Source of the DNA: Armatimonadota bacterium
Lineage (GTDB): Bacteria; Armatimonadota; Fimbriimonadia; Fimbriimonadales; Fimbriimonadaceae
Direction of reading: 5' to 3'
Length of the DNA stretch: 64,000 nt
Assembly: GCA_031400935.1 (NCBI GenBank)
Contig: JANNQV010000025.1
Location: 1 to 64,000, forward strand
A model generated the notes under the pieces. The model was not told the origin of the DNA and made no database searches. It worked only from the letters and a program-made list of their open reading frames with translations. The translations under genes and the position numbers were made by a program. Position 1 is the first letter of the stretch, and each line of letters begins with the position of its first letter. Shown piece after piece: positions 23,217 through 28,364 of this stretch.

Positions 23217-23292
23217 GCGCTCGTAGCTCAGTGGATAGAGCAACAGGTTGCGGACCTGTAGGTCGGAGGTTCGAGTCCTCTCGAGCGCGCCA
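23217..23292 (+). tRNA. tRNA-Arg (anticodon read as GCG)
   Basis: 76-nt cloverleaf folded by hand. Acceptor GCGCTCG/CGAGCGC, D-arm GCTC/GAGC with A20, anticodon stem ACAGG/CCTGT, loop TTGCGGA, T-arm GGAGG TTCGAGT CCTCT, discriminator G, encoded CCA. Confidence 0.85.
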
Positions 23293-23522: not shown

Positions 23523-23759
23523 ATGAGTGATAGAGACAATGCAAACGGTTTGCTTTATATGTTGGCTGGAGTGGGACTTGGCGCGATTATCGGCGCAGCC
23601 GCAGGCCTGCTTTTTGCCCCTAAACCAGGAGCAGAGACCAGAGAAGAACTTGCAGACAAACTAAAAGAACTGAAAGACAAGACTGGTGAATGGGTAAACG
23701 AGCAACGTGCGAAGCGAAACGCCACGCCCAGCGAGCTTTTAGAAGAAATCGGAGCGTAA
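23523..23759 (+). CDS. YtxH-like (DUF948) small membrane/stress protein
   Basis: 78 aa. GxxxG-rich TM segment followed by APKPGAETREELADKLKELKDKTGEW, typical of YtxH. Confidence 0.6.
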   Translation: MSDRDNANGLLYMLAGVGLGAIIGAAAGLLFAPKPGAETREELADKLKELKDKTGEWVNEQRAKRNATPSELLEEIGA

Positions 23760-23786
23760 CAGCCAAGAACGAGTATCCTTACCAGC

Positions 23787-24980
23787 ATGACAGGTTGGAG
23801 GTTAGCGCTTTGGTTGGGAATGGCTTGCGGCGCATTGTGGTTCCTCTACCTCGTGCGCGGCATTTTATTGCCGTTTTTGCTGGCAATAATTATCTCCGTC
23901 GTACTTGATCCTTCAATTCGGAAGCTACGAATGCGAGGCATGAACCGGTTTTGGGCGGTTTCGCTCGTAATGGTCGCGTTTTTTGCGATCGTGACTGGAT
24001 TTGCAGTTTGGCTCACACCGATGGTTGGTGGGCAGGTCACGACGTTTAAACAAACTGTTGAAAAAGTCAGTTCAAGCATTGCAGCCCCAGATCCGAATCA
24101 AAACTTTTTTGTACGGTGGAACCCTGTAATCGTCGCTGAAATGCCAGAGCGTCAAGATTTTATTGACCAAACCCTAAAACAATTTGAGCCGCAACTCAAG
24201 GCGGTAGGCATTCCAACTACGCGGAAAGCACTTTATGACCGCTATATTGCTCCAAACAGCAAGCAAATTTCGGCTGGAGTGCAGAACTTCTTTAATAGTT
24301 TGTTCGGATTTGTAGCAGGTCTCACATCGCAGATATTCTTGCTTGTTTTGACTCCGCTGTTGGTTTTCATGCTTCTTGTTGATCTTGAGCGTATCAAAAA
24401 GCGATCAGTAACATGGATTCCTCCAGCAATACGTGCCTCGACCGTAGAATTGATCAGCGAAATCAGCGATGTTTTCACAAGCTACCTTCGCGGAATGACG
24501 TTGCTGGTCGTTCTCTATATGTGTGCCGCATCGCTTTTGCTTCTTCTACTTGGCGTTCAATATTCAATCTTGATTGGAATGGCGGCGGGCTTCATCTATC
24601 TCATACCTTACATCCGAGTTTTCATTTCGCTGCCGATATTGTTTTTCGTGAGCTTTATGAGTGGATCAGACAAGCTCTTGTTTTTCACTTTGCCATCCAC
24701 GTTGCACTATGCGATGGCGGTTTGTATCATTTTCTTTGCGTTTGATGCATCGTATGACACACTTGTCTCGCCTCGAGTCATTGGTAAGGCAGTTGGGCTC
24801 AACCCTGTCGTATCCATGTTTGTGTCCTTAGCTGGTGGTGCGCTCTTTGGGATTCCTGGGATGTTACTTGCGTTTCCTACTGCTGGGGCTTGCAAAGTGA
24901 TTCTGGACCGGATGTTACGATATACATCTACGACTCCATCGGTACTTTCTTTGCCTTCAGTTCCCTTGAGGCATCGTTAG
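23787..24980 (+). CDS. AI-2E family transporter (PerM/UPF0118)
   Basis: 397-aa polytopic membrane protein with AI-2E-like topology and conserved proline/glycine-rich TM motifs. Confidence 0.8.
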   Translation: MTGWRLALWLGMACGALWFLYLVRGILLPFLLAIIISVVLDPSIRKLRMRGMNRFWAVSLVMVAFFAIVTGFAVWLTPMVGGQVTTFKQTVEKVSSSIAAPDPNQNFFVRWNPVIVAEMPERQDFIDQTLKQFEPQLKAVGIPTTRKALYDRYIAPNSKQISAGVQNFFNSLFGFVAGLTSQIFLLVLTPLLVFMLLVDLERIKKRSVTWIPPAIRASTVELISEISDVFTSYLRGMTLLVVLYMCAASLLLLLLGVQYSILIGMAAGFIYLIPYIRVFISLPILFFVSFMSGSDKLLFFTLPSTLHYAMAVCIIFFAFDASYDTLVSPRVIGKAVGLNPVVSMFVSLAGGALFGIPGMLLAFPTAGACKVILDRMLRYTSTTPSVLSLPSVPLRHR

Positions 24981-25040: not shown

Positions 25041-25210
25041 GTCCCTACAGGGACTGTCGAAAAATGATCCCAAAGGGATCCAATGATAATAGCCGGAGTT
25101 CGAACGAAGAGAGACCACTGGTTCAAACGGTCTCCAAATTATGCACTACGGAGGATTTCCAGATTCCCATATCCCAGTTTCTCAACACTCCCTTACAGGG
25201 ATTGATCCCT
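25041..25210. repeat. Cluster of short hairpins with 3-nt loops between convergent genes
   Basis: GTCCCT-AC-AGGGAC (25041..25054), GATCCC-AAA-GGGATC (25066..25080), TCCCT-TAC-AGGGA (25189..25201, overlapping the kinase stop codon). Confidence 0.4.
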
Positions 25211-27406
25211 TTTCAACCTTGCAACCAGCTGCTCTGGCGTAATTCGAACTGTTCTGTTTCCGGAATCCAATGACACAGCCATCTCTATCGGCTCAATCCT
25301 AAATGTTGCGACCCCACTATCAAACGTGAACTCAACTAGCTCATCTGCCATTTCAACAGACTCAAGTCGGCCCGTTGCGACGCGCCATTTCTTAATCAAT
25401 CCGCCAAACGAGATTTCTTCATCCGTAATCAAAAGCCTTCCAGATTTTTCCTCTAGCTTCGATTCAGAATTGCCTTCATTCTCGAATACTTTCGTAGCTG
25501 GACCGTCCCAAAGCAGATCAGGCCGCTTGGGATGTTCTAACCCAATCTCGCCTCGAACATACGACTGAACTATCGCGTCGCTTAAGTCATCGTTAAACTG
25601 AGTTTCAGCCTGAGATTCAGGCAAGTTAAGCCCGATTCGGTGCCATTCAAAGGGTGCAAGGCTCCGTTCCAGATGGTTTTTTAGAGCTTCAATTGAAGAA
25701 TGCACGAGTTTGAGCGCATATAAATCATGGTCGAACTCGGTTCCGCAATCAGCGCATACGAATCCTGGTTGTTTGCTAGATTTCCCAACGCCGAGCCATC
25801 TCAATTCTTCGATAGACAAGTGCCTGCCAATCAGCAGGTCGCAAGAATGGTAAGGGTCGCGGTCTACGTTAATCAGTGTAATTGAAGTATCCGTCAGAAC
25901 ATAATCCGCTCCGCACGAATCGCATTCTGCGTTTCCGCCAGAAGCCGGAAGGTGCGCAGCAATTCTTGCCCATTGCTCTGGATAGAGGGCTCCATATTGG
26001 CTTGTGTTTGCAGGAATTGCTTGTCGCCGTCTTCCATCAGTTAGTTGGTCGAATTGTGCTCCGCACGCTTTGCACATATACAGGGTTTGCGTGCGGCCAG
26101 AGTCATCCAGCCACTGTTCGCCGGTCTTTGAAACGGGTTCAGAATTCAATTCATCGGGAGTGCAGAGCCATAGTTCGCCGTCGGGCTCGAATTTCGCATT
26201 GCACTCAGCGCAGAAAATCGAAACACCTTTTTTGAACATTCCAGACTTCTGGTTCTTGAGCACTCCCGCCTTGCAATGCGGACAGATACCATTGGGAAGG
26301 CGATTTTCAATTTGCCCGAGTTTGCCGTCCCTGCAACAAGGACATTGGGACTCGGAAGTCGGGCGAATTCGGACGATGCCATCTCGGCAAGCTGGGCATT
26401 GCCTAGGTTTGAGCGGTTTCGGCTGCTCTAGAATCCCGATTTGACACGCTGGGCATTGGCGCTTTTGGAATCGTAACGATTTCAGTTGACCTGCTCTTGC
26501 GTCGAAGTCTGCCAACGAAAGTGGGACGATAAAGGTCTCATTTCCTTGGAGAATTCCAATCAATTCTGCGGCGGATTTGGCTCTGTCCTTGAGCGATTTC
26601 TGCAAACCTCGGTCAATTGCGTTCTTTAATCCGAGTGGCAAATCTGGGCGTTCGGCTTCCATGAGTTCTAGGGGCGTCGCTTCTTCTTTGGTTCGAGAAA
26701 TTTCGGGAAGAACGGCAGCGAAAATTGAAGCGCATAGCGCGTAAAGGTCGGTTGCGGGACCTCTATGCACATTTGACTTTAGAACTTCTGGTGCCGCAAT
26801 CTCAGAAAGAAACTGTTGCAGTTGCGAGTCGGTTCGATCAGCTTCCCATTCGCGAGCGGCGCCTGGGTCAATGAGAAAGCCTTGTCCAGGCTCGAAAAGA
26901 ATGTTTGAAGGCCGAATATCGTGATGCAATCTTGTTCGATGAATGGCTTCCAGGGCTTCAAGCAAACTCTTAAGAAGATGCAGCGCATCGCGAGAATCAA
27001 GTGCCCCAGATTGCGCGATTAGGGCTTGCAGATTTGGGGCTTCCTCGAAATATGGCGAAACCGAGAAGGCTGTCCCAAGTTCTTCGAAAGTGGCGATCAC
27101 GGGCAAATTGCCCGATACTTGAATCTTGCCGACTTGAGTGGCATGAGAAATAAACCTGCGACGAAGTTCATGGGCGATTGTCCATTCTTGGCCGAGATCG
27201 GCGTATCCTCCAGGTAATCGGGAAGCCGCATTTGGAAACAGTTCGCGGACTGCAACATGGCTTTCTCGCAGTTTGTCCAATGCCAAATATGTACAGCAAA
27301 ACCCACCCATCCCAAGGCACTTCAGAATTTCAAATCGCTCATAGAGAACGATATTTGGTGCGAGCGGGGTTCTTGTACCTTGTTGTTCCGTTTGCGCTTG
27401 CAACAT
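25193..27406 (-). CDS. Ser/Thr protein kinase fused to four zinc-ribbon (CxxC) pairs and a C-terminal bPH-like domain
   Basis: Kinase subdomains (GMGGFCCTYLA, HHDIRPSNIL, DPG). Eight CxxC motifs. C-terminal LLITDEEISFGG...RLESVE resembles a bacterial PH domain. The start is chosen at MLQAQ; the ORF opens at 27559 through an (SP)5 tract. Confidence 0.75.
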   Translation of the reverse strand: MLQAQTEQQGTRTPLAPNIVLYERFEILKCLGMGGFCCTYLALDKLRESHVAVRELFPNAASRLPGGYADLGQEWTIAHELRRRFISHATQVGKIQVSGNLPVIATFEELGTAFSVSPYFEEAPNLQALIAQSGALDSRDALHLLKSLLEALEAIHRTRLHHDIRPSNILFEPGQGFLIDPGAAREWEADRTDSQLQQFLSEIAAPEVLKSNVHRGPATDLYALCASIFAAVLPEISRTKEEATPLELMEAERPDLPLGLKNAIDRGLQKSLKDRAKSAAELIGILQGNETFIVPLSLADFDARAGQLKSLRFQKRQCPACQIGILEQPKPLKPRQCPACRDGIVRIRPTSESQCPCCRDGKLGQIENRLPNGICPHCKAGVLKNQKSGMFKKGVSIFCAECNAKFEPDGELWLCTPDELNSEPVSKTGEQWLDDSGRTQTLYMCKACGAQFDQLTDGRRRQAIPANTSQYGALYPEQWARIAAHLPASGGNAECDSCGADYVLTDTSITLINVDRDPYHSCDLLIGRHLSIEELRWLGVGKSSKQPGFVCADCGTEFDHDLYALKLVHSSIEALKNHLERSLAPFEWHRIGLNLPESQAETQFNDDLSDAIVQSYVRGEIGLEHPKRPDLLWDGPATKVFENEGNSESKLEEKSGRLLITDEEISFGGLIKKWRVATGRLESVEMADELVEFTFDSGVATFRIEPIEMAVSLDSGNRTVRITPEQLVARLKRDQSL

Positions 27407-27435
27407 TTCGTATTTGAATTCTGGCAGAACTTGGG

Positions 27436-27466
27436 AAGGGGATGGGGATGGGGATGGGGATGGGTG
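27436..27466. repeat. (GGGGAT)4GGG hexanucleotide tandem repeat (G-quadruplex-capable), 30 to 60 bp upstream of the kinase start
   Basis: Read directly: GGGGATGGGGATGGGGATGGGGATGGG. Confidence 0.7.
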
Positions 27467-27507
27467 CAGGGTATGGAGTCCAGGAAAGAGGATTGAGTCT
27501 TTAACTG

Positions 27508-27585
27508 GGAACCGATAACTGACAACTGAAAACCGATGACTTTGAAACGCGCACCACAAACCCTTAACCCCAAACCCTTCCCCAA
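27508..27585. repeat. G-poor dispersed repeat copy (GAACCGATAACTGACAACTGAAAACCGATGAC ... CAAACCCTTAACCCCAAACCCTTCCCC)
   Basis: Shares the AACTGACAACTG core with 32369..32380 and 42147..42158. Confidence 0.4.
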
Positions 27586-27608: not shown

Positions 27609-28364
27609 ATGGTCGCCCTCTTCGCTGTCGCGATTTGCCAGTATGCTTTTTTTCCTTCTGCTCCACTGATCTATTCGGTTGTGATTGAGATGAATGGCAC
27701 ATTGCCCATTTTAGGAGGTAAAGAAGGGAAAGCGACAATTGAGTTCGATATGCGAGTTATCGGTCTTTTGCAGGATGCTGAAAAGCGGTCACAGGCAGAA
27801 TATGAGTTGCTCTCCTTTCGCACGAAAATGAATGGCGCACTACTTCCATTTGGGCTCGCAAGCGTAAAAGACTTCTTTCCGAAATCTATGTTTTCTTATA
27901 GTTCGACTGGTGAAGTGCTTCATACGACGGCTCCCAAGAAGAGCCTTCCAGCTTCAATGCCAGGGCTAGATTCGCAAAAATTACCGGAAACGACTTTCAT
28001 GCCAATAGTGTTTGGGAAAGGCTCTTCGTGGAACTTTGATAGAACTTTCAATGGAACCAAAATCCGATATTCGGCAACCTCAAAGCCCACAACCGAAGCA
28101 ATGGAAGAATGTGTATTTTCAGCATCACAAGCCGTGAAGTCTTGGGAGGATGAGTCAAACCGTCCAATAGCATCAAGGGAAGGTGCTGCTTTTGAAGTGG
28201 GTTCGCAATTGACCGCAAAGGGATTGCTGAGTTTTGATAAAGTTCAGCAATGCTTGATCCGATCGGAAACAACTGTTGAGATTGAAGGCGATGCGAGGCA
28301 CATTGAATCGAAGCAGTTGTTTCATCGGAAGCTGATGCTCAGAATTGTTTGCACCTTGAAATAG
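27609..28364 (+). CDS. Hypothetical protein with an N-terminal hydrophobic segment
   Basis: 251-aa ORF with coding-like composition and no recognisable motifs. Divergent from the kinase gene. Confidence 0.4.
   Translation: MVALFAVAICQYAFFPSAPLIYSVVIEMNGTLPILGGKEGKATIEFDMRVIGLLQDAEKRSQAEYELLSFRTKMNGALLPFGLASVKDFFPKSMFSYSSTGEVLHTTAPKKSLPASMPGLDSQKLPETTFMPIVFGKGSSWNFDRTFNGTKIRYSATSKPTTEAMEECVFSASQAVKSWEDESNRPIASREGAAFEVGSQLTAKGLLSFDKVQQCLIRSETTVEIEGDARHIESKQLFHRKLMLRIVCTLK

What the first reader, a model, noticed from the sequence alone, without database searches (positions are those of the whole stretch)
25193..27406. Ser/Thr kinase fused to four zinc ribbons and a bPH-like domain
After a Hanks-type kinase domain (HHDIRPSNIL catalytic loop) the protein carries eight CxxC motifs arranged as four zinc-ribbon pairs (CPAC..CPAC, CPCC..CPHC, CAEC..CKAC, CDSC..CADC), then a C-terminal region (LLITDEEISFGGLIKKW...RLESVE...) resembling a bacterial PH (bPH_2) domain. 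This is an unusual architecture, possibly a nucleic-acid- or membrane-tethered signalling kinase. The ORF can also be read from an upstream start through an (SP)5 tract encoded by the GGGGAT repeat, so repeat length could alter the N-terminus.
Basis: partly seen in the sequence, partly recalled or inferred. Interest (0 to 1): 0.55.

Follow-up and report, generated by a model that had tools for sequence, protein, structure and literature searches.

The report
Degenerate kinase with zinc ribbons, PH domain
This gene encodes a soluble bacterial Ser/Thr-kinase-like protein fused to four zinc ribbons and a PH-like domain; the family is undescribed and was found only in Fimbriimonadia-type Armatimonadota, and this copy has lost key catalytic residues, so it probably signals without normal kinase activity.

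Summary

- The C-terminus is not a bPH_2 member by sequence. Only 5 of 69 relatives give sub-threshold bPH_6 or bPH_10 hits.
- The (SP)5 extension is very unlikely to be translated. The ATG is conserved, the closest relative has an in-frame stop 12 codons upstream, and the tract is not conserved.
- This copy is a sequence-defined pseudokinase. Its relatives keep VxxKEL, αC-Glu, HRDxKPSN and DFG. The window clade has VAVREL (Lys→Arg), αC Glu→His, HHD, DIRPSN and DPG, has lost the third G-loop Gly, and lacks the activation-loop Thr. The domain is still under purifying selection.

The architecture defines a conserved family of at least 257 clusters at 50% identity. Every named locus is from Fimbriimonadia or Armatimonadota. 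The gene sits in a housekeeping-type syntenic block, not a defence island. The function of the zinc-ribbon/PH module is unknown; I infer partner binding.

Verdict: a new variant of a known kind, of moderate interest.

The parts
25193..27406 (-). Complete CDS, 737 aa plus stop; start at the conserved ATG 27406-27404
   Evidence: Homologues P0002 and P0003 start at the same Met. Residues L15, L21, R24 and F25 are invariant or nearly so, which rules out the shorter 705-aa gene call (P0001).
26537..27349 (-). Hanks-type protein-kinase fold (residues ~20-290) with degenerate motifs: G-loop GMGGFC, β3 VAVREL (Lys54→Arg), αC His88 (family Glu), HHD161-163, Arg165 (family Lys), Asn168, DPG180-182
26471..26521 (-). 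Connecting helix (residues 296-312) with conserved D302 and L308
   Evidence: AF2 helix 298-309; conservation in alignment A1.
26357..26470 (-). Zinc ribbon 1 (residues 313-350; C318, C321, C337, C340), basic (net +6)
   Evidence: Invariant Cys. Sub-threshold Zn_ribbon hits. Charge. The pairing of CxxC motifs is inferred from spacing, not verified.
26237..26356 (-). Zinc ribbon 2 (residues 351-390; C355, C358, C375, C378), basic (net +3; family mean +5)
26042..26236 (-). Zinc ribbon 3 (residues 391-455; C399, C402, C445, C448) with a variable ~42-residue insert (β-hairpins plus helix 429-436), acidic
25931..26041 (-). Conserved helical segment (residues 456-492) carrying the LYPEEWARVAAGL-type motif
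   Evidence: This motif was the pattern that retrieved the 37 genome loci.
25724..25930 (-). Zinc ribbon 4 (residues 493-561; C495, C498, C551, C554) with a ~52-residue conserved insert (RWLGVGK motif), acidic (net -8)
25523..25723 (-). β-strand plus three-helix linker (residues 562-628) with the invariant W-H-R and LP motif
25196..25522 (-). PH-like β-sandwich with a C-terminal capping helix (residues 629-737), acidic (net -7)
27433..27464 (.). Hexamer repeat, (GGGATG)5.3 on the + strand, which is (CCCATC)n on the coding strand. It lies 27-58 nt upstream of the ATG, in the leader or divergent promoter region, and is most likely untranslated.
27415..27427 (-). CTGCCAGAATTCA box, conserved immediately upstream of the start codon in the window, L002 and L007
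27609..28364 (+). Divergently transcribed 251-aa protein of unknown family. It is a conserved neighbour and a candidate partner (association inferred from synteny only).
   Evidence: No Pfam or NCBIfam hit. Homologues are adjacent and divergent in at least 16 related loci at 25-34% identity.

Best explanation
The gene encodes a soluble cytoplasmic member of an undescribed family found here only in Fimbriimonadia-type Armatimonadota. The family combines an N-terminal Hanks-type Ser/Thr kinase domain, a helix, four Cys4 zinc ribbons (two basic, two acidic with conserved inserts), a helical linker and a C-terminal PH-like domain.

In most members the kinase is canonical. There the zinc-ribbon/PH module presumably targets or regulates it by binding a partner (inferred).

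The window's copy belongs to a sub-clade in which six canonical kinase positions changed together: β3 Lys→Arg, αC Glu→His, HRD→HHD, catalytic-loop Lys→Arg, DFG→DPG, and the third G-loop Gly→Cys. The activation-loop Thr residues are also lost. The catalytic Asp163, Asn168 and the DFG Asp180 are retained, and the domain remains under purifying selection.

Most likely this copy acts as a pseudokinase-type scaffold or switch. It may still bind nucleotide, and its output would be set by what the invariant zinc-ribbon/PH module binds rather than by efficient phosphotransfer.

Shown: the architecture, the fold, the motif states, the conservation, the synteny and the start codon. Inferred: zinc binding, loss of activity, and partner binding.

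For: Family: about 72 full-length homologues. The profile of the non-kinase region alone finds 257 clusters, and all ten long variants tested are kinase fusions. All 37 genome loci come from Fimbriimonadia or Armatimonadota MAGs, a few with deviant record labels.

Degeneracy: motif tables. The kinase domain is the best-conserved part among canonical members (55% identity) but is only 37% identical between the window clade and canonical members. The corresponding figures are 48 versus 41% for the zinc ribbons and 39 versus 31% for the linker plus PH domain. Within the window clade dN/dS is about 0.08-0.10. Lacking the VAIK Lys meets the published sequence definition of a bacterial pseudokinase, and a conserved Lys→Arg also defines the ActPs2 family (bioRxiv 10.1101/2025.01.12.632604). 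Other lineages lost the β3 Lys or the catalytic Asp independently while keeping the Cys array.

Context: the gene is monocistronic. It lies between a divergent conserved unknown gene and a convergent AI-2E transporter plus YtxH, near guaA, and this order recurs across distant relatives.
Against: - Asp163, Asn168 and Asp180 are retained, and both lost lysines are replaced conservatively by Arg, so residual or altered catalysis cannot be excluded.
- No biochemical data exist for any member.
- No ligand or partner has been identified.
- The neighbours are convergent or divergent rather than operonic, so synteny may reflect only vertical inheritance in a narrow clade.
- dS is near saturation, so the dN/dS values are rough.
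Confidence: 0.55

Rival explanations
1. It is an active but atypical Ser/Thr kinase. Arg54 and Arg165 take over the phosphate-contacting roles of the two lysines. The coordinated substitutions retune nucleotide or substrate specificity rather than abolish catalysis.
For: - The catalytic Asp163, Asn168 and the Mg-binding Asp180 are kept.
- Both Lys changes are conservative, and all the changes are fixed identically in three diverged relatives (76-77% identity) under dN/dS of about 0.09.
- Some kinases lacking the VAIK Lys still bind ATP or remain active, for example WNK (discussed).
Against: - The β3 Lys→Arg change is the classical kinase-dead substitution (established knowledge).
- The αC Glu partner is lost as well, as are the HRD Arg, the DFG Phe (now Pro), a G-loop Gly and the activation-loop Thr residues.
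- The kinase domain has diverged disproportionately from the canonical members.
Confidence: 0.3
2. One reading: the kinase is tethered to nucleic acid through the zinc ribbons, or to the membrane through the bPH-like domain.
For: - Zinc ribbons 1 and 2 are consistently basic across the family (means +4.8 and +5.0).
- Zinc ribbons commonly bind nucleic acids (general knowledge).
- The fold of the last domain is PH-like.
Against: - There is no transmembrane or amphipathic segment (maximum hydropathy 1.45).
- The PH-like domain is acidic in the window protein (-7) and near neutral in the family (mean -1.3). Zinc ribbons 3 and 4 are acidic.
- No bPH_2 hit was found.
- No DNA- or RNA-related genes are consistently adjacent.
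- PH-like folds bind peptides and proteins as often as lipids.
Confidence: 0.15
3. It is an anti-phage defence kinase of the PD-T4-6 or MADS Mad6 type.
For: - PADLOC PD-T4-6 models hit residues ~20-290 (best E 1e-20) and mad6 hits at 4e-13.
- NCBIfam MAD6 hits at E 3.5e-16.
Against: - The hits cover only the generic kinase domain.
- The NCBIfam score is 58.8 against a cut-off of 460.
- The gene sits in a conserved housekeeping-type block (guaA, AI-2E transporter, YtxH, tRNA-Arg). That block is found across the class, with no methylase, nuclease or mobile-element genes nearby.
Confidence: 0.03
4. Translation starts at the upstream TTG (27559), giving an (SP)5-containing N-terminus whose length varies with the hexamer repeat.
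For: The frame is open from 27559, and the repeat is a perfect hexamer array.
Against: - L002 has an in-frame stop 12 codons before the conserved ATG.
- The extension is not conserved in L007.
- All 38 aligned homologues begin within about 30 residues of the kinase domain.
Confidence: 0.05

Closest known systems
Bacterial Hanks-type Ser/Thr kinases (PpkA, PknB/Stk1)
   Same: - Pfam PF00069 scores above threshold.
- The general plan is shared: an N-terminal kinase followed by a C-terminal accessory module.
   Different: - There is no transmembrane segment and there are no PASTA, FHA, vWA or TPR domains. The accessory module (four zinc ribbons plus a PH-like domain) has no curated model.
- The window copy lacks the β3 Lys, αC Glu, HRD Arg, catalytic-loop Lys and DFG Phe.
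Bacterial pseudokinase families of the bSTK atlas (e.g. ActPs2, with conserved VAIK Lys→Arg)
   Same: It meets the same sequence definition, loss of the VAIK Lys, with the same Lys→Arg replacement.
   Different: - The lineage differs (Armatimonadota, not Actinobacteria), and the HRD Asp and DFG Asp are retained.
- It is a sub-clade inside an otherwise canonical family.
- The main text of the atlas does not mention zinc ribbons, PH domains or Armatimonadota. Its supplementary tables were not checked.
Eukaryotic PH-domain kinases (Btk/Tec, GRK2)
   Same: A protein-kinase fold and a PH-fold domain sit in one polypeptide. The Btk, Tec and GRK2 PH domains are among the best structural matches of the C-terminal domain.
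   Different: - The PH-like domain is C-terminal and acidic, and it has no evident phosphoinositide-binding basic pocket.
- It is separated from the kinase by four zinc ribbons. The resemblance is almost certainly convergent domain usage.
Bacterial PH domains (Pfam bPH_2 PF03703, bPH_6 PF10756, bPH_10 PF23494)
   Same: The PH superfold is shared. A few relatives give weak bPH_6 or bPH_10 hits (3 and 2 of 69, best E 0.0028).
   Different: - There is no bPH_2 hit at all, and nothing reaches a gathering threshold.
- The domain is not associated with transmembrane helices, unlike the YdbS/YdbT-type bPH proteins (my knowledge of that family).
Generic Cys4 zinc ribbons (Pfam Zn_ribbon_8, Zn_ribbon_6/DZR, Zn_ribbon_FGT1_2)
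   Same: - Paired CxxC knuckles on β-hairpins.
- Many sub-threshold hits across family members: Zn_ribbon_8 in 12 of 17, Zn_ribbon_6 in 11 of 17, and FGT1_2 in 9 of 17 (best E 3e-7).
   Different: - It is a fixed array of four units with conserved, family-specific inserts in units 3 and 4.
- No single known domain covers the region.

Membership tests
Hanks-type (eukaryote-like) protein kinase superfamily, Pfam PF00069 | Sequence match to the Pkinase profile above the gathering threshold | tested here: met
   57.2 bits against a cut-off of 31.7, E 2.2e-15, residues 26-233
Hanks-type (eukaryote-like) protein kinase superfamily, Pfam PF00069 | Bilobal kinase fold | tested here: met
   [not shown]
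Catalytically canonical Ser/Thr kinase | β3 (VAIK) Lys forming a salt bridge with the αC Glu | tested here: not met
   Arg54 and His88 in the window. The family has Lys in 33 of 39 sequences and Glu in 36 of 39.
Catalytically canonical Ser/Thr kinase | HRD catalytic Asp and DFG metal-binding Asp | tested here: met
   Asp163 and Asp180 are present, but in the contexts HHD and DPG. The catalytic-loop Lys165 is Arg.
Pseudokinase (sequence definition: lacks at least one of VAIK Lys, HRD Asp, DFG Asp) | Loss of at least one residue of the triad | tested here: met
   VAIK Lys→Arg. The definition is the one stated in bioRxiv 10.1101/2025.01.12.632604.
Pseudokinase (functional definition) | Absence of phosphotransfer activity | not testable with these tools
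   Requires an in vitro kinase assay
Cys4 zinc ribbon | Two CxxC knuckles per unit, conserved | tested here: met
   8 CxxC motifs with 16 invariant Cys; none of 20000 shuffles reach 8
Cys4 zinc ribbon | Match to a curated zinc-ribbon profile above threshold | tested here: not met
   Only sub-threshold hits. In the window protein the best is Zn_ribbon_SprT at 19.1 bits against a cut-off of 28.1. Several zinc-ribbon families recur across members.
Cys4 zinc ribbon | Tetrahedral Zn coordination by the paired knuckles | not testable with these tools
The pairing 1-2, 3-4, 5-6, 7-8 is inferred from spacing.
Bacterial PH domain bPH_2 (PF03703) | Sequence match to the family profile | tested here: not met
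   No hit at E<=10 in the window protein or 29 relatives, and none at E<=1 in 69 relatives
PH-like superfold | Antiparallel β-sandwich closed by a C-terminal α-helix, with structural similarity to PH, PTB and GRAM domains | tested here: met
   [not shown]
PD-T4-6 / MADS Mad6 defence kinases | Full-length equivalog score and a defence-system gene context | tested here: not met
   NCBIfam score 58.8 against a cut-off of 460. The context is housekeeping-type synteny with no partner genes.

The most novel reading that the evidence does not exclude
The module of four zinc ribbons, a helical linker and a PH-like domain may be a new, lineage-specific sensor or adaptor that is the real functional core of this family. 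The kinase domain would then be a dispensable output that has been silenced repeatedly, in at least four or five independent lineages including this one. The conserved divergent 251-aa protein of unknown fold would be its partner. If so, this would be a natural series of transitions from kinase to pseudokinase on a fixed scaffold in a poorly studied phylum.
Probability: 0.2. Interest if true: 0.6.

Novelty: new variant of a known kind. Interest (0 to 1): 0.4.

Why it matters
Bacterial Ser/Thr kinases are classified largely by their accessory domains, and bacterial pseudokinases are barely studied. This family adds an accessory module not covered by Pfam or NCBIfam and not mentioned in the main text of the 2025 bacterial kinase atlas.

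It also offers closely comparable canonical and degenerate members with an invariant non-catalytic module. That makes it a convenient natural system for asking what a bacterial pseudokinase does.

The finding corrects three points for annotation: the start codon, the domain content, and the label 'serine/threonine protein kinase', which is probably wrong in the enzymatic sense for this clade. It does not by itself open a long-standing question, and the biology of the host (uncultured Fimbriimonadia) limits its immediate impact.

Tried and rejected
- The afdb50 fold library was unavailable, so AlphaFold-database neighbours of the zinc-ribbon array and the PH-like domain could not be surveyed.
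- Model coordinates and PAE are not exposed. Cys-Cys distances and any contacts between the zinc-ribbon/PH module and the kinase active site could not be measured.
- Profile searches of the zinc-ribbon region and of the PH-like region against PDB sequences gave only chance-level hits: RING fingers at E 0.007-0.1, and a mannosidase and RnlA at E above 0.3. I rejected a RING-like cross-brace reading because it rests on those weak hits and the CxxC spacing fits tandem ribbons, but I could not exclude it structurally.
- I rejected a defence-system reading (the PADLOC and MAD6 hits) because the hits cover only the kinase domain and the genomic context does not fit.
- I checked whether the kinase and the unknown 251-aa gene form a recombination or divergence island relative to L002. 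Nucleotide identity is 74-75% against 81-83% in the flanks. This shows only faster protein evolution, not an island.
- Literature searches for this architecture found nothing specific.
- No promoter or terminator signal above chance was found. A weak hairpin plus T-run at 25066-25080 (minus strand) is noted only.
- No second family member is present in the 64-kb window.
Full report
**1. What is there.**

The minus strand carries one long ORF, 25193-27559. Pfam recognises only a protein-kinase domain, at residues 26-233 (E 2.2e-15, above threshold). NCBIfam and PADLOC hits are likewise confined to the kinase domain and fall far below the family cut-offs. The protein has no hydrophobic segment (maximum 19-residue Kyte-Doolittle hydropathy 1.45), so it is soluble.

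**2. The cysteine array is real and conserved.**

None of 20000 shuffles of the region reach eight.
- About 72 full-length homologues (700-750 aa, 33-40% identity, 97-98% coverage) exist in public data. Those that carry a name are labelled Fimbriimonadaceae, Fimbriimonas or Armatimonadetes.
- In a 39-sequence alignment all 16 cysteines of the eight motifs are invariant, whereas the other cysteines of the region are not.
- Scanned one by one, family members give recurrent but sub-threshold hits to many generic zinc-ribbon models: Zn_ribbon_8 in 12 of 17, Zn_ribbon_6 in 11 of 17, Zn_ribbon_FGT1_2 in 9 of 17, and DZR in 7 of 17.
- The region is therefore not a known single domain. It is best read as four Cys4 ribbons. 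Units 3 and 4 carry conserved inserts of about 42 and 52 residues. Ribbons 1-2 are basic across the family (means +4.8 and +5.0) and ribbons 3-4 are acidic (means -4.4 and -8.1).
- The pairing of neighbouring CxxC motifs, and zinc binding itself, are inferences.

**3. The C-terminus is PH-like, but not bPH_2.**

- AlphaFold2 with the family alignment gives a confident full-length model (pLDDT 87.3, pTM 0.72). The model of residues 556-737 is very confident (pLDDT 94.2). It shows a short β element and three helices, then a β-sandwich closed by a C-terminal helix.
- By sequence the window protein hits no Pfam family in this region. Among 69 diverse relatives only 3 hit bPH_6 (best E 0.0028) and 2 hit bPH_10. 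None hit bPH_2.
- The fold claim therefore holds, and the family assignment does not.
- The domain is acidic in this protein (net -7; family mean -1.3). That argues against a classical role in binding anionic lipids.

**4. The start codon and the repeat.**

- The hexamer array (27433-27464, 5.3 copies) is real. It lies in frame between an upstream TTG and the ATG.
- In the two closest loci (76-77% protein identity) the ATG and a CTGCCAGAATTCA box just before it are conserved.
- The region corresponding to the repeat in those loci is only a degenerate, C-rich tract with 6-nt periodicity. L002 has an in-frame TGA 12 codons upstream of the ATG.
- All aligned homologues begin just before the kinase domain, and residues 15-25 are conserved. 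This also rules out the shorter 705-aa gene call.
- The (SP)5 reading is therefore very unlikely to be translated. The repeat sits in the leader or the divergent promoter.

**5. This copy is a degenerate kinase.**

- The family consensus has every canonical Hanks motif: GRGGFG, VVKELAP, αC Glu, HRDIKPSNIL, DFG and TPGYAPxE.
- The window protein and its three closest relatives instead have GMGGFC, VAVREL, αC His, HHDIRPSN, DPG and LSEIAAPE.
- In other words they have lost the β3 Lys, its Glu partner, the HRD Arg, the catalytic-loop Lys, the DFG Phe, one G-loop Gly and the activation-loop Thr residues. They keep Asp163, Asn168 and Asp180.
- Among canonical members the kinase domain is the most conserved part (55% identity). 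Between the window clade and canonical members it drops to 37%. The zinc-ribbon region drops only from 48% to 41%.
- Within the window clade the domain is still constrained: 80% identity, and dN/dS about 0.08-0.10 with dS near saturation.
- Loss of the VAIK Lys meets the sequence definition of a pseudokinase used in the 2025 bacterial kinase atlas. The atlas also notes a family (ActPs2) with a conserved Lys→Arg.
- Other lineages of the same family lost the β3 Lys independently: to Asn in L006, L025 and L034; to Arg in L040; and to Leu, together with GFG, in P0046 and P0048. L038 lost the catalytic Asp. All of them keep the Cys array.

**6. Distribution and context.**

- A profile of the non-kinase region alone, searched against 1.84 billion representative proteins, finds 257 clusters (167 at E<=1e-30).
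- The shorter hits are fragments. All ten of the longer variants tested (798-1069 aa) are also N-terminal kinases. The long variants scanned with the profile show a longer linker, sometimes duplicated zinc-ribbon units, and in most of them the same PH-like end.
- A scan of one genome per GTDB species found 37 loci, all in Fimbriimonadia or Armatimonadota MAGs, a few with deviant record labels.
- The gene is monocistronic. Downstream, transcribed convergently, lie an AI-2E-family transporter and a YtxH protein. Upstream, transcribed divergently, lies a 251-aa protein with no Pfam or NCBIfam match, followed by guaA.
- The convergent AI-2E transporter (usually with YtxH) recurs in more than 20 related loci. 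The divergent 251-aa gene recurs in at least 16, at only 25-34% identity.
- This is a conserved chromosomal block, not a mobile or defence island. It makes the 251-aa protein a candidate partner, but not a demonstrated one.

**7. How it most likely works.**

- Shown: the architecture, the folds, the motif states, the conservation pattern and the start codon.
- Inferred: the zinc-ribbon/PH module is the ligand- or partner-binding part of a cytoplasmic signalling protein.
- In canonical members this module would target or gate a working kinase. In the window's clade phosphotransfer is probably lost or strongly reduced, and the protein would act as a scaffold or conformational switch, possibly still binding nucleotide.
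- The main rival is an atypical but active kinase in which Arg replaces both lysines. I put it at about 0.3.
- Nucleic-acid binding through the basic ribbons 1-2 is compatible with either model and is untested.
- Membrane tethering, a defence role and a repeat-variable N-terminus are poorly supported.

**8. Comparison with known systems, and novelty.**

- The kinase domain is an ordinary member of the bacterial Hanks-type superfamily in fold. PpkA and PknB are the closest structures.
- What is not described is the accessory module. I found it in Pfam and NCBIfam only as sub-threshold generic zinc-ribbon hits. The main text of the bacterial kinase atlas and of the pseudokinase review contains no mention of zinc ribbons, PH domains or Armatimonadota. 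Other literature searches found nothing.
- The combination of a kinase fold and a PH fold recalls Btk/Tec and GRK2, but without sequence relationship and with a different domain order.
- I classify it as a new variant of a known kind: a bacterial Ser/Thr kinase family with a new accessory module, here in pseudokinase form.
- Interest is moderate (0.4). It is a solid, annotatable and testable finding, but it is not mechanistically surprising and no function is yet attached.

Noticed in passing
window 27609-28364 (+): A 251-aa protein with no Pfam or NCBIfam match is transcribed divergently from the kinase. Homologues (25-34% identity) occupy the same divergent position in at least 16 distantly related loci, so it may be a functional partner.
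   Followed up: partly
window 23217-23292 (+): A tRNA-Arg gene with anticodon GCG and an encoded CCA end. As far as I know, bacteria normally decode CGU and CGC with an ACG (inosine) tRNA, so a GCG anticodon is unusual.
   Followed up: no
window 27407-27500; L002 3900-3972; L007 90-154: The leader upstream of the kinase ATG is C-rich with a 6-nt periodicity (CCCnnn) in all three close loci. It is a perfect (CCCATC)5 array only in the window. A CTGCCAGAATTCA box directly precedes the start codon in all three, and no Shine-Dalgarno-like sequence is visible.
   Followed up: partly
related proteins P0201, P0207, P0208, P0215, P0224, P0226, P0231 (968-1069 aa): A longer group keeps the kinase and the four zinc ribbons, and most members also keep the PH-like end. 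It has about 100 extra residues after the kinase and one to three extra copies of the second half of zinc ribbon 4. One related 798-aa variant (P0212) is labelled Fimbriimonadales.
   Followed up: partly
loci L006, L025, L034, L038, L040; proteins P0046, P0048: Independent losses of catalytic residues occur elsewhere in the family while all 16 cysteines are kept: β3 Lys→Asn, Arg or Leu; HRD→HQD or HLD; catalytic Asp→Asn in L038; DFG→GFG in P0046 and P0048.
   Followed up: partly
window 23523-24980 (+): The pair of a YtxH-like small protein and an AI-2E-family transporter lies convergent to the kinase. It is conserved next to the kinase in more than 20 related loci. These neighbours are 90-96% identical in protein to L002, against 77% for the kinase.
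   Followed up: partly
window 25066-25080 (-): A short GC hairpin followed by a T-run lies about 113 nt downstream of the kinase stop codon. It is a possible terminator, but the number of such sites in the region is no higher than in shuffled sequence.
   Followed up: no
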